Positions 47,738-52,052 of a stretch of DNA of 64,000 nt are shown here, in pieces. The DNA comes from the human T2T-CHM13v2.0 reference genome, Homo sapiens. Below the pieces are notes generated by a model. The model was not told the origin of the DNA, made no database searches, and saw only the letters and a program-made list of their open reading frames with translations. Position 1 is the stretch's first letter, and each line of letters starts with the position of its first letter. The translations under genes were made by a program, and so were the position numbers. The stretch lies in assembly GCF_009914755.1 (NCBI RefSeq), contig NC_060943.1, one strand, 5' to 3'.

Positions 47738-47853
47738 GATGTACCTGGGTGTCCTGCCACCTGCCATCTGTGTCTGGGTGGAGCCCCAGTGCCCTGAGAG
47801 CAGTGAGGAGGCTATGGCGCTGGTGGAGGACTTCACCCAGATGTTGAAGACTG
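47738..47853 (+). pseudogene. Exon encoding the C-terminal half of a SCAN domain
   Basis: CAG|G acceptor, G|GTGAG donor; from ATG 47739: [38 protein letters not shown], compared with MZF1 [35 protein letters not shown] in this window. Confidence 0.8.
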
Positions 47854-48539
47854 GTGAGCCACAGGGGTCCAGGGGTTGGCCAGAGGGATAGGGGAATCTA
47901 TGAGGGATCACAGCTCATGACCTTGGGCCCTGAGTGTCTCCCTCCGTCTGCCTAGGCCCTCAATATCCCTGTCTTGGGGAGGAGGACCTAGAAGCTGTGA
48001 CGCATTTGGAGACTTCTGCAGCCTCTGAGCCCCCCAAAGGCATGAGCTTGAGGTTGATGTGACTTCTCCTCTCTTGGGGTAGACCAGGCTTCCTTTCCCA
48101 TCCTTCTTTCCTTCCCCGCAAGGTCACTAAGTGCCTGCCATATGCCAGGCCCTATTGGTCCAGCAGGGAAAGACACTTGGCATTCATGGAGCCTAGTCTG
48201 GTTGGAGAAATGGACCATGAGACCATCAGTCACAATTTAGGTATCCTTTCCCTGAAGGAGGTGGGGGAAGAGGAGGTGAGCACAGAGACTGGCCTGGCAG
48301 GGAGCAGCTTTGTAGTTTTCAGTGTCTAACATCTTCACTGTGAGCTTGGGTTCCACACGTGTGTATGCGTTTGTGCTTGGGAGGGGGTGACAACTACAAG
48401 ATATGAGAGAAGGGTGGTTACAGCCACCATTCATCCTGGCATTTGTTCCTCTGTTCACTCGATTGCTCATGCATGACTGTGCAGTGTCTTCTGCCTACGC
48501 GATTCTCTGTCAGGAGGTAGAAACTATATCACTTTTTTT

Positions 48540-49110
48540 TAAAAGCACACCTTTACCAAGTTATAATTCACATACCAAAAAAGTATACAATTCAGGTATT
48601 TTTAGTATATTCACAAGGTTGTACAGCTATCACCACCATTTAATACCAGAATGTAATCACAACCAAAAGAAACCCCATGCCCATTAGTAGTCACCCATCA
48701 GCCCCCTCCTCTAAGCTCCCGGCAATCACTAATCTGCTTTGTGTCTCTATGGATTTGCTTATTCTGGACATTTCATTAAATGGAATCATACTTTATGTGG
48801 CCTTTTATGTCTGGCTTCTCTCAGAGCATAATGTTTTCGAGGTTCACCCATGTTTTAACATGTCAGAACTTCATTTTTATGAGCAAGTGATATTCCATTG
48901 TATGGATATGACCCATTTTGTTTATTCATGTATTCTTTGATCAGCATTTGGCTTGTATTTACTTTTCGGCTATTATGAATAATGCTGCTATGGATGTTCA
49001 TGTACATGTTTTTGTTTGGATGTTTGTTTTTATTTCTCTTGGTTGTATACCTAGAAGTGGAATTGCTGGGTCATATGATAACACTATTTGACCTTTTGAG
49101 GAACTGCTAA
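48540..49110 (-). mobile_element. Old antisense L1 fragment (L1MB/ME-like)
   Basis: ...ATTTCATTAAATGGAATCATAC...TATACCTAGAAGTGGAATTGCTGGGTCATATG. Confidence 0.75.
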
Positions 49111-49580
49111 CACACCACTTGTTTTAACAGAGGGAAATTAAGGTAAAAAATGTTACCGAGATATTGAAGGAGTAAAAAAGTACAAAAAGAACCCTAAGAT
49201 GTCATGTTGGTAGGAACTTCAGGGAACAACATCCATTCCTAGAGCTTTATGAACAAAGGGAAGAGGTTGGGTTTAGTCTTTGAGAGAAGCTCAAAGGAGG
49301 GGAACGTGGTGGTGGGGGCACTGGGATCCAGATCCCTGGGGAGGTGTTGCTGCGGGCTGACGCTGGGGTCTCCACAGAGCCTTCATGAAGCTGATTCTAC
49401 ACATACTGGAATAGCTGCAAGCTGGTTTCAGCTACTGCTAAGGGGATTGAAAGCCTTGCTTTTGCAGGACTGGTTTTTCCTTACACATGAATATGAGGGG
49501 CGGGGGAGACATCTTGGATGCATATATCTATAGTCACTGTGGGGTGTTGTTTTTTTTTTTCTGTAGTGCTGGGCTCTATT

Positions 49581-50608
49581 TTCTTTCCTTCCTTCCTTCC
49601 TTCCTTCCTTCCTTCCTTCCTTCCTTCCTTCCTTCCTCCCTTCCTTCCCTCTTTCTTTCTTTCTTTGACGGAGTTTTGCTCTTGTTGCTCAGGCTGGAAT
49701 GCAATGGTACAATCTCGCCTCACTGCAACCTCCACTTCCCGGGTTTAACCGATTCTCCTGCCTCAGCTCCCAAGTAGCTAGGATTACAGGCATGTACCAT
49801 CACACCTGGCTTATTTTATATTTTTAGTAGAGACAGGGTTTCTCCATGTTGGTCAGGCTGGTCTCGAACTCCTGAACTTGGGTGATCCGCCTGCCTTTGC
49901 CTCCCAAAGTGCTAGGATTACAGGCATGAGCCACTGCACCCAGCCATGGGCTCTGTTTTCTAAGCATGTCCACCAGCATTTGAGGCATAGTGTCTCCTGA
50001 ACAATGGCTAGCATATGCCTGCTCTTTAAGGACTAGCCCCCAGTTCTGGTTCCCAGTGTCCCATTGAACAGATGCCTAGATAATATGCACTCTAAATAGG
50101 GATTTTGGGCTGGGTACGATGGCTCACGCCTGTAATCCTAGCACTTTGGGAGGCTGAGGTAGGTGGATCACCTGCGGTCAGGAGTTCAAGACCAGCCTGG
50201 CCTATATGGTGAAACCCTGTCTCTACTAAAAATACAAAAATTAGCCAGGCATTGCTGGGCGCGGTGGCTTGCGCCTGTAATCCCAGCAATTTGGGAGGCT
50301 GAGGCGGGCGTATCACCTGAGGTCGGGAGTTCGAGACCAGCCTGGCCAACATGGTGAAACCCCATCTCTACTTAAAATACAAAAATTAGCCGGGCGTGGT
50401 GGTACGCACCTATAATCCCAGCTACTCGGGAGGCTGAGGCAGGAGAAATCACTTGAACCCGGGAGGCAGAGGTTGCAGTGAGCCGAGATTGCCCCATTGC
50501 ACTCCAGCCTGGGGGACAAGAGCGAGACTTCATCTAAAAATAAACAAAAATTAGCCAGGCATGGTGGCGGGCGCCTATAATTCCAGCTACTCGGAAGGCT
50601 GAGGGGGG
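49581..50608. mobile_element. (CCTT)n-tailed antisense Alu (to 49944) and nested sense Alus (50108-50608)
   Basis: Alu consensus motifs. Confidence 0.88.
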
Positions 50609-50612
50609 AGAA

Positions 50613-50630
50613 GTTAGGGTTAGGGTTAGG
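50613..50630 (+). repeat. Short interstitial telomeric sequence G(TTAGGG)2TTAGG
   Basis: Flanked by a 13-bp direct repeat AGGCTGAGGGGGG. Confidence 0.8.
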
Positions 50631-50900
50631 CTGAGGGGGGTGATTTGGAAACCCGATGTTCAGTGTGAGGGGCAGGGAAAGCTTATAAAGTCCTAGTGTG
50701 TTTACAGAAGCTTGCTGCATTCCTGAGAGTGAAGTTAGTTTAGTGTATGGGGCAAACATCCACTGGGAAGTGAGCCCTGTGACCCTAATATGGCCCGAAT
50801 CTGCTCCTTAAAGAGAGAGACTTGGTAAATTATCTTTACCAGGTGTTACCCAAGCCTGTCAGCACTCCCCACCAGTAAGCCTTGTGTCCTCATTTTACAG

Positions 50901-52052
50901 CGCGAGTCATGGCTGGGGCCTTAGTGGCAACAAGTGCTGAGATCAGCGGGCTCAGTAGCAGGAACACAAGCACCCCCTTGCGGTGTCTGGAGGAAGCGGC
51001 GCGGACAGTCTCCCGCTCCACCGTGTCGGGCCTGAAGAGGCCGCTGAACGCTCGCGATTACTGAGGCATCTGGTAGGATCGCAAGGCCATCAACCTACAG
51101 GTGAAGCTCGAGGCGCTGTGGCGCTTTGAAGCCGGAGAGAAGCTCAGTAGAATCGGGAAGGCGCTGGGGCTGTCCAACTCCACCTTGGCCACCATTCGTG
51201 ACAACAAGGAAAAGATCTGGGCGAGTTCCCAGGAGGCCACACTGCAGGCGGCCACCAAGTTGACGCGTGGCCGCAGCCTGGTGATGGAGAACATGGAGCA
51301 GCTGCTGAGCATGCGGATGGAGGACCAGAGCCAGCGCAACATGCCCCTCAGTGTGGTGCTCATTCGGGAGAAAGCCCACAGCCCGTTCGAGAACCGCAAG
51401 CAGGAGCAGGGCGAGGGCGCCTAGCCCGAGAGCTTCGGGGCCGGTCGAGGGTGATTCGCTGGCTTTAAGGCGCGCCACAGCTTGAGCAGCATCGGGGCCA
51501 GCGGCCCAAGAACGCAGCGTGCAAGAACCCAGCGTTAATGCGCAGGGTGATCCCGGAGGGCGGCTACACACTCTGGCTGGTGTTCACCATGAATAAGCTC
51601 TGGCTGGTGTTCACCATGAATAAGCCCAGGTTCCTCTGTAAGCGCCTGCCGAGAGGACGTTCATTTTCCTGTGGAAGATGAGTCGGCCCCTGGGTCAAAG
51701 CCGCCGGAGACCTCCTGACCCTATTGCTCGGTGGCAACGCAGCCGGCGACTTTAAGCTGAAGGCCCTGCTGGTGTACCCCTCGGAGAACCCGTGTTTCCT
51801 CAAGGGCTCCTTCAAGCCCAACCTGCCCTTGGTGTGGTGCTCGCACAAGAAAGCCTGGGTACAGCCTGGGTGACAGAGCGAGACTCCGTCTCAAAAAAAA
51901 AAAAAAAAAAAAAAAAAAGCCTGGGTAACCATGAGCCTCTTCCAGGAGTGGTTCCTGCACTTCTGCTCTACAGTGGAGGGCGCTGCACCCAGTACGACCT
52001 TCCCTACAAGGGGCTGCCCATCCTGGACAGCACTCCCGGCCACCCTGGGTGT
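50901..52052 (+). pseudogene. CENPBD2P: pogo/Tigger (CENP-B/TIGD-like) transposase-derived pseudogene exon: psq-type HTH, CENP-B HTH, partial DDE domain
   Basis: [13 protein letters not shown]...[83 protein letters not shown]. Stops at 51062, 51074, 51422, plus frameshifts. Symbol (formerly CENPBD1P1/MGC2752) from remembered position. Confidence 0.88.
51862..51918 (+). mobile_element. Severely 5'-truncated Alu (31 bp + A26) with TSD
   Basis: TSD AAAGCCTGGGTA at 51850-51861 and 51916-51927. Confidence 0.9.

What the first reader, a model, noticed from the sequence alone, without database searches (positions are those of the whole stretch)
47738..52052. Fossil SCAN-pogo transposase fusion gene hidden in CENPBD2P
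Seen: exon 47738-47853 encodes [31 protein letters not shown], matching the C-terminal half of SCAN (MZF1 here: [31 protein letters not shown]). The ORF track misses it because it is under 60 aa. It ends in a phase-1 donor (ACT G|GTGAG). The acceptor TTTTACAG|CG at 50900/50901 is phase 1 and in the same frame as the psq/CENP-B HTH (51101 onward). The transposase codons are GC-rich and I see no TIRs, which fits a long-domesticated gene. A CpG promoter with ZNF143-type motifs lies upstream, divergent from MZF1. Known: SCAN-transposase fusions exist (PGBD1, SCAND3/ZBED9). Inference: this locus is a decayed SCAN-HTH-DDE host-transposase fusion of the pogo family that may be intact in other mammals. 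I do not know of it being described this way.
Basis: partly seen in the sequence, partly recalled or inferred. Interest (0 to 1): 0.85.

Follow-up and report, generated by a model that had tools for sequence, protein, structure and literature searches.

The report
Ruin of a mammalian SCAN-transposase gene
The human pseudogene CENPBD2P holds broken pieces of a SCAN domain and a Tigger transposase that match a predicted whole fusion protein in koala, possum, Tasmanian devil, mole and a baleen whale; in whales, hippo and deer the same SCAN start is predicted to be joined to a second, unrelated transposase, so one host module likely captured transposons twice.

Summary
The core inference holds. 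47742-47849 is the C-terminal 40% of a SCAN domain (Pfam E 3e-7, above cut-off). 50901-52049 is a single-copy Tigger/pogo transposase remnant. Predicted 712-784-aa SCAN-HTH-HTH-DDE proteins in three marsupials, mole and a baleen whale match both pieces (72% in the whale), and the human piece nests in their clade.

Orthologs have a 27-29-residue middle exon and a phase-0 acceptor; the human frame match comes from later frameshifts, and two stops precede the HTH.

Beyond the finding:
- In whales, hippo and deer the same N-terminus (160/160 identical in baleen whales) is joined to a second, apparently horizontally spread Tigger transposase that keeps its D-D-D triad.
- A third domesticated transposase sits upstream in other mammals and is missing here.
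- The published 79-aa CENPBD2P microprotein is very likely a transposase-frame fragment, against a 2025 claim that the gene is not a pseudogene.

All orthologs are gene models; no DNA, reads or dN/dS were available. Cosby et al.'s fusion table (unseen) may already list the intact genes.

The parts
45029..45643 (.). CpG promoter region with three ZNF143-like cores (45029 on +; 45429 and 45635 on -), head to head with MZF1
   Evidence: motif name recalled, binding untested
45077..45266 (+). Exon 1 of NR_026052.1; homologous to the 5' end of bat type-C transposase models
   Evidence: RefSeq table; P0118 8-136 vs 44957-45412 E 2.7e-11; P0106 1-13 vs 45204-45242, 10 of 13 identical
45153..45194 (+). 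13-codon sORF matching the published CENPBD2P_p_13
   Evidence: ORF length; guide sequences of PS05637 in the PMC11929002 supplement compared by eye
45938..46009 (+). Possible stub (first 24 codons) of the lost type-C transposase exon
   Evidence: rank 1 of 127,852 six-frame positions (25 vs next 17) in an ungapped scan chosen after seeing the hit; hmmsearch with the same segment missed it
47742..47853 (+). 3' remnant of the SCAN exon, ending in the ancestral phase-1 donor
   Evidence: Pfam E 3.4e-7; 26 of 36 identical to whale P0003, 16 of 36 to MZF1; nearest other human SCAN 60%
50689..50772 (+). Intron stretch that matches the first exon of the hippo type-A model P0005
   Evidence: tblastn E 1.6e-4
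50893..50900 (+). Acceptor of the type-A transposase exon; inferred phase 0 in the ancestor
   Evidence: human genomic frame reads ILQ|R as does the devil extended-acceptor isoform; five different downstream exons all follow a Q
50901..51076 (+). Linker part of the transposase exon, frameshifted, with stops at 51062 and 51074; holds a 51-codon ATG ORF (50909-51064)
51077..51505 (+). Two helix-turn-helix regions (CENP-B_N, HTH_Tnp_Tc5) of the type-A transposase, stops at 51422 and 51452
   Evidence: nests in the eutherian type-A clade
51185..51424 (+). 79-codon TTG ORF in the transposase frame; likely the 79-aa microprotein of Chen et al.
   Evidence: the only 79-codon ORF among ATG/CTG/GTG/TTG/ACG starts in the first 1400 nt of the transcript; two PL00345 guides map at 51301 and 51334; no Pfam hit at E 0.001
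51514..52049 (+). N-terminal part of the DDE domain, with several frameshifts; homology ends at residue 336 of 564 of P0001
51571..51624 (+). Perfect 27-nt tandem duplication over the first catalytic motif
51847..51927 (+). Short Alu-like 3' end with poly(A), flanked by a 15-nt target-site duplication, inserted in the DDE region
   Evidence: repeat D5; multi-copy hits; Alu identity recalled
52050..52338 (-). Tail-less Alu-like element at the point where the transposase breaks off; likely deletion junction
   Evidence: masked 52048-52338 in NCBI's file; no further transposase match in the window or the next 10 kb

Best explanation
CENPBD2P holds a broken SCAN exon and a broken Tigger-family transposase exon that are likely the remains of a fusion gene born before marsupials and placentals split, predicted whole in marsupials, mole and a baleen whale. 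The ancestral gene likely spliced a SCAN exon (phase-1 donor) to a 27-29-codon middle exon and then, in phase 0, to the transposase exon. Its product would be a catalytically dead DNA-binding adaptor: two conserved HTH domains would bind sites derived from the cognate transposon's ends, and the SCAN domain would dimerise with itself or with SCAN zinc-finger proteins such as its head-to-head neighbour MZF1 (function inferred, about 55%). In the ancestor of whales, hippo and deer a younger Tigger element likely landed behind the middle exon and became an alternative last exon, giving the same SCAN a second DNA-binding specificity (about 80%). On the human line, deletions likely removed an upstream third transposase, the 5' part of the SCAN exon, the middle exon and the last 40% of the transposase; promoter, exon 1 and the acceptor survive and drive today's transcript and its short ORFs.
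For: Shown: 7 of 19 hits to the human HTH piece carry SCAN, 5 of them SCAN+HTH+DDE_1 (domains rechecked for three of them). Both human pieces match the same proteins in the same order and strand (SCAN 72%, HTH 68% to P0003). The human HTH piece nests in the eutherian type-A clade, support 100; types A, C and CENPBD1 each split marsupial/placental (quick tree, 64 rows). The DNA is single-copy. Constraint: koala vs manatee HTH1 49/52, HTH2 56/67, DDE 182/214, linker 10/34. Third catalytic Asp absent in 11 of 11 type-A proteins, present in 5 of 5 type-B fusions. Middle exon boundary: elephant isoforms P0007 and P0008 join different upstream sequence to the same VLAQ start. Dual capture: residues 1-160 are identical (160/160) between P0003 (type A) and P0075 (type B) while the transposases are 44% alike; hippo A and B models share a contig length of 2,966,508; type B groups with tarsier (91%) and Komodo dragon (88%) proteins. 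Locus order C-SCAN-A: read-through models P0034 (C+SCAN), P0027 and P0079 (C+start of A). The fusion SCAN groups with the chr19q-end SCAN genes including MZF1, support 96.
Against: Every ortholog is a predicted gene model; no ortholog DNA, synteny map or junction reads were seen. Several type-A records lack SCAN (manatee, orca, hippo, camelids) or are truncated (elephant 317 aa). The middle exon is undetectable in human (149 of 150 shuffles as high), so its loss is inferred from absence. P0003 and P0075 come from two Balaenoptera species, not one genome. The SCAN tree does not make the fusion SCANs one clade (3 changes). Genome-wide protein searches score only some candidates and missed CENPBD1P, so absence of types B and C from the whole human genome is not shown. 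DNA binding and dimerisation were not tested. The tree was the quick, not the careful, search.
Confidence: 0.88

Rival explanations
1. One reading: a two-exon fossil in which the SCAN exon spliced directly (47853->50901, phase 1) into the transposase frame.
For: Phases fit arithmetically in the human sequence.
Against: All 9 SCAN-bearing proteins aligned have 27-29 residues between the SCAN exon end and the transposase exon. The ortholog-matching linker runs through three frames in human. The devil isoform and the human genomic frame both read ILQ|R, which indicates phase 0.
Confidence: 0.04
2. The SCAN remnant belonged to a separate SCAN zinc-finger gene, and the fusion proteins in other species are annotation chimeras of neighbouring genes.
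For: Read-through models do occur at this locus (P0027, P0034, P0079), and some type-A records have no SCAN.
Against: The same junction recurs in three marsupials, elephant and whale, with a variant acceptor in mole; no zinc-finger exon turns up in any of these proteins.
Confidence: 0.05
3. Types A and B in whales, hippo and deer are two duplicated genes with their own SCAN exons rather than alternative last exons of one gene (this concerns only the dual-capture claim).
For: No single species gave both SCAN-A and SCAN-B proteins as cluster representatives; hippo A is modelled without SCAN.
Against: 160/160 identity across A and B forms would need recent gene conversion; records are labelled isoforms X1-X3.
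Confidence: 0.12
4. CENPBD2P is a genuine sORF gene that did not arise by pseudogenisation (PMC11929002).
For: The paper shows translation of the 13-aa ORF and growth effects on targeting (passages).
Against: Its negative BLASTN used word size 20 (supplement legend). Here the DNA matches a CENPBD1-type locus on chr16 at 71%, E 2.7e-20, and Pfam finds transposase domains. A present-day role for the RNA or sORFs remains possible alongside a pseudogene origin.
Confidence: 0.02

Closest known systems
Host-transposase fusions (Cosby et al., bioRxiv 10.1101/2020.05.07.082677), e.g. KRABINER, KTIGD1/3
   Same: Host domain spliced to a transposase held on its own exon; capture as an alternative last exon; SCAN is named there among host domains.
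   Different: No KRAB here. One host module appears to carry two transposases of different ages. The human copy is dead, so a screen of gene models would not see it. Whether their Table S3 lists the intact genes is unknown; one of their genes is called TIGD-G4-Zscan29 and buffalo is among their genomes.
PGBD1 and ZBED9/SCAND3 (SCAN-transposase fusions)
   Same: N-terminal SCAN on a domesticated transposase; PGBD1 is described as specific to non-monotreme mammals (abstract start in the listing).
   Different: Their transposases are piggyBac and hAT/integrase types (ZBED9 details recalled); this one is pogo/Tigger (CENP-B_N, HTH_Tnp_Tc5, DDE_1).
CENPBD1, TIGD2-7, JRK, POGK (Gao et al. 2020, PMC7386202)
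   Same: Domesticated Tigger transposases with a degenerate triad; CENPBD1 is the sister lineage of types A and C (support 99) and is likewise missing in most primates and rodents.
   Different: Gao et al. list no SCAN fusion and set TIGD1-like sequences aside as pseudogene-like.
SETMAR
   Same: Host domain fused to a young transposon exon; comparable to the type-B isoform (cited; biochemistry recalled).
   Different: Mariner, primate-specific, SET domain.
Lizard SCAN-Tigger gene models (P0143, P0192, P0204)
   Same: Same domain set.
   Different: Both SCAN and transposase fall outside the mammalian clades: likely independent fusions.

Membership tests
SCAN domain (PF02023) | HMM score above the gathering cut-off | tested here: met
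   30.4 bits vs 27
SCAN domain (PF02023) | Complete domain able to dimerise | tested here: not met
   human has profile positions 53-88 only; the five full-length type-A orthologs carry the whole domain
pogo/Tigger transposase-derived | CENP-B_N + HTH_Tnp_Tc5 + DDE_1 | tested here: met
   all three in P0003, P0009, P0010, P0075; human pieces hit CENP-B_N and DDE_1, the second HTH by alignment only
Active Tigger transposon | Intact D-D-D triad | tested here: not met
   third Asp absent in 11 of 11 type A; present in 5 of 5 type-B fusions
Active Tigger transposon | TIRs and multiple copies | tested here: not met
   single copy; no TIR in 50600-52700, though the 3' end is lost
Host-transposase fusion (Cosby criteria) | Host and transposase domains in one frame in a multi-exon gene model | tested here: met
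   orthologs; not met by the human locus itself
Host-transposase fusion (Cosby criteria) | RNA support for every intron | not testable with these tools
   no reads or exon tables available
Host-transposase fusion (Cosby criteria) | Syntenic orthologs | tested here: inconclusive
   indirect only: promoter/exon-1 and intron matches, read-through models, shared contig lengths
Host-transposase fusion (Cosby criteria) | dN/dS below 1 on the transposase | not testable with these tools
   no ortholog DNA; protein identities by domain point to constraint
Unitary pseudogene | Disabled, with intact orthologs elsewhere and no working copy in the genome | tested here: met
   lesions; single-copy DNA; orthologs
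CENPBD1 processed or duplicated pseudogene | Derives from CENPBD1 | tested here: not met
   falls in type A, a separate clade from CENPBD1 since before the marsupial split

The most novel reading that the evidence does not exclude
The locus beside MZF1 is a serial transposase-capture cassette. One promoter and one SCAN module serve up to three Tigger-derived last exons. In whales, hippo and deer a horizontally acquired element with an intact catalytic triad was plugged in and has been kept under selection while the old transposase exon decayed in many lineages: a transcription factor swapping its DNA-binding domain. Humans keep only a ruin, from which a transposase-frame 79-aa peptide is still translated.
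Probability: 0.55. Interest if true: 0.8.

Novelty: new variant of a known kind. Interest (0 to 1): 0.63.

Why it matters
It identifies CENPBD2P as the lost human ortholog of an old mammalian transcription-factor-like gene and corrects a published statement on its origin. It places two of the three reported microproteins on the transposase exon, one in the ancestral frame. If the dual capture holds, it is a natural experiment on how one host domain acquires a new DNA-binding specificity: two isoforms with one SCAN and two transposases can be compared directly by ChIP in whale or cattle cells.

Tried and rejected
Middle exon in human: not found by hmmsearch or frameshift-aware scan (149 of 150 shuffles as high over 47854-50900; 220 of 300 over 47854-48120, which covers a candidate exon near 47957-48040).

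SCAN N-terminal part upstream of 47742: not found (21 of 60 and 101 of 300 shuffles as high). The DNA alignment to MZF1 there is gappy and unconvincing.

Start of the type-C exon at about 47690: rejected (233 of 500).

Homology of the middle exon to the MZF1 intron: a tblastn extension artefact.

Subtelomeric duplication as the cause of the 3' truncation: 52340-56000 gave only interspersed-repeat hits among 40 of 7671 candidates scored.

MZF1 as the specific SCAN donor: unresolved; the tree gives the chr19q-end SCAN group only.

Weak Pfam hits on flanking frames (HOXB-AS3, V-SNARE_C, ZNF512_C2HC, Ribosomal_S21) lie below cut-off and were dismissed.

Literature: nine searches found no paper describing this fusion or CENPBD2P as its remnant; one search was swamped by unrelated words. 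The Science version of Cosby et al. is not held.

No structure or complex prediction was run: a SCAN-SCAN pair would likely pass by likeness to solved dimers.
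Full report
Observation. It scores above Pfam's cut-off (E 3.4e-7, positions 53-88 of 90) and is picked up by MZF1's SCAN within the window (E 2.9e-5). The exon beginning at 50901 gives CENP-B_N and DDE_1 hits. Donor and acceptor are as quoted. 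The transposase DNA is single-copy: of 6 matches, one is the locus itself, four are to an inserted repeat piece and one is a 71% match on chr16. That chr16 locus is 76-79% identical in its first segment to proteins of the CENPBD1 clade (the name CENPBD1P for it is my reading).

Intact relatives. A search with the human HTH piece among longer proteins returned 19 hits from 258 candidates. Seven carry SCAN, and five carry SCAN, HTH and DDE_1: Balaenoptera ricei, Talpa, koala, brushtail possum and Tasmanian devil, 712-784 aa. Both human pieces match these same proteins in order. The remnant is 26 of 36 identical to the whale SCAN but 16 of 36 to MZF1 and at most 60% to any other human SCAN among 49 candidates scored. 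In a 64-row quick tree the human piece sits inside the placental branch of this lineage (type A), support 100, and type A splits into marsupial and placental branches. Conservation is uneven, as selection would leave it: koala vs manatee HTH1 49/52, HTH2 56/67, DDE 182/214, linker 10/34. All 11 type-A proteins examined lack the third catalytic aspartate.

The junction. All nine SCAN-bearing proteins aligned have 27-29 residues between the end of the SCAN exon and the transposase exon. Two elephant isoforms join different upstream sequence to the same start of this segment, which marks it as an exon. Five different downstream sequences follow its final Q. A devil isoform that extends the acceptor reads ILQ|R, as the human genomic frame does. 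I infer a phase-0 last intron. In human the ortholog-matching linker starts in the phase-0 frame and shifts at about 50959 and 51020-51034 into the HTH frame, which is why the acceptor now looks phase 1. The middle exon and the first 95 residues of the SCAN exon are undetectable, while the positive control is strong. Further lesions: stops at 51062, 51074, 51422 and 51452; frameshifts near 51508, 51652-51695 and 51979; a 27-nt duplication and a poly(A) insertion with a 15-nt target duplication; and loss of everything after residue 336 of 564 at a tail-less Alu-like element. Nothing further matches in the window or the next 10 kb.

A second transposase on the same SCAN. A koala query (279 hits of 8000 scored, best 120 listed) returned five clusters of 765-769 aa, 155 member sequences in all, from whales, hippo and deer. 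Their first 160 residues are identical to the type-A whale protein in P0075 (160/160; hippo 155, deer 140), yet the transposases are 44% alike. This type B groups with tarsier, Komodo dragon and catfish proteins (91% and 88% to the first two), the patchy pattern of a horizontally spread element, and its five fusion members follow the species tree. All five keep D-D-D. Whale-deer identity of 87% without stops suggests constraint (inference; divergence of about 55-60 My recalled). Hippo A and B models share one contig length. Alternative last exons are the simplest reading. B's position relative to A is not shown. No ruminant type A appeared among the listed hits, and seal and bat type-A pieces look decayed, so A may have been lost repeatedly; that rests on capped lists.

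A third transposase. Type C is sister to A, is also therian, and lies upstream by read-through models (C+SCAN in P0034; C+start of A in P0027 and P0079). Bat type-C models begin with sequence matching the human promoter and exon 1 (E 2.7e-11). Human has no type-C ORF in the window; a possible 24-codon stub lies at 45938 (post hoc). The genome-wide search showed nothing above 44% but scored only 67 of 9189 candidates.

Origin of the SCAN. The fusion SCANs and the remnant group with the SCAN genes of the chr19q end, MZF1 and ZNF446 included, support 96; the exact donor is unresolved and the fusion SCANs are not one clade in this short alignment. Lizard SCAN-Tigger models fall outside in both trees.

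How it likely works. Shown: domain order, conservation of the HTH domains, loss of the triad in A. Inferred from the families: the HTH pair binds transposon-end sequences, SCAN mediates homo- and hetero-oligomerisation (PMC13709654, passage), and the DDE fold persists as a scaffold. Cosby et al. show that KRAB fusions act through cognate TIRs; without KRAB, this protein would act through partners. B would redirect the same SCAN to a younger set of sites.

The human transcript today. PMC11929002 reports 13-, 51- and 79-aa ORFs and concludes that the gene did not arise by pseudogenisation. The annotated transcript has ORFs of exactly those lengths at 45153, 50909 and 51185. Guides for the ORF shared with Chen et al. 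map inside the last, which is in the transposase frame. It lacks the start of the first HTH and the end of the second and has no Pfam hit, so it is unlikely to bind DNA. The paper's negative result used BLASTN with word size 20.

What is in print. Gao et al. 2020 (passages, and a term search of its supplements) list 12 domesticated pogo genes, no SCAN fusion, and exclude TIGD1-like sequences. Cosby et al. (preprint passages, text parts 1, 2 and 8 of 9, section 20) screened RefSeq models by criteria these genes could well meet. Their Table S3 is in the closed bioRxiv supplements, so the intact genes may be catalogued; I put that at about even. PMC11929002: passages, section 9 and supplement searches. 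Chen et al. was not read. Nine searches found no account of CENPBD2P as this gene's remnant or of the dual capture.

Verdict. Interest 0.63.

Noticed in passing
window:50611-50630: About three TTAGGG-like units at the broken end of an Alu-like element in the intron, roughly 30 kb from the 19q end; possibly a telomere-type insertion at a repaired break.
   Followed up: no
window:50901-51866: CpG o/e stays at 0.58-0.81 in the dead transposase exon but is 0.10 in the SCAN remnant, suggesting the exon stays unmethylated in the germ line or died late.
   Followed up: partly
L004:1729-3665: Human chr16 CENPBD1-type locus, in three broken segments, 62-79% identical to CENPBD1-clade proteins: the sister gene is also broken in human.
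   Followed up: partly
window:45204-45266: An ATG in exon 1 opens a 28-codon ORF across the annotated splice; its first 13 codons match the N-terminus of bat type-C models.
   Followed up: partly
window:53900-54770: An 870-nt interspersed repeat with many 85-89% copies overlaps the annotated 3' end of CENPBD2P and may supply its polyadenylation.
   Followed up: no
window:47934-48059: Exon-like GC-rich stretch with a polypyrimidine/AG at 47956 just behind the SCAN donor; it did not score as the middle exon.
   Followed up: partly
proteins P0127, P0128: Tarsier and Komodo dragon Tigger proteins are 91% identical to each other and 85-91% to the artiodactyl type-B exon, pointing to horizontal transfer among amniotes.
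   Followed up: partly
proteins P0143, P0192, P0204, P0209, P0220: SCAN-Tigger fusion models, four from lizards and one unnamed, apparently independent of the mammalian gene.
   Followed up: partly
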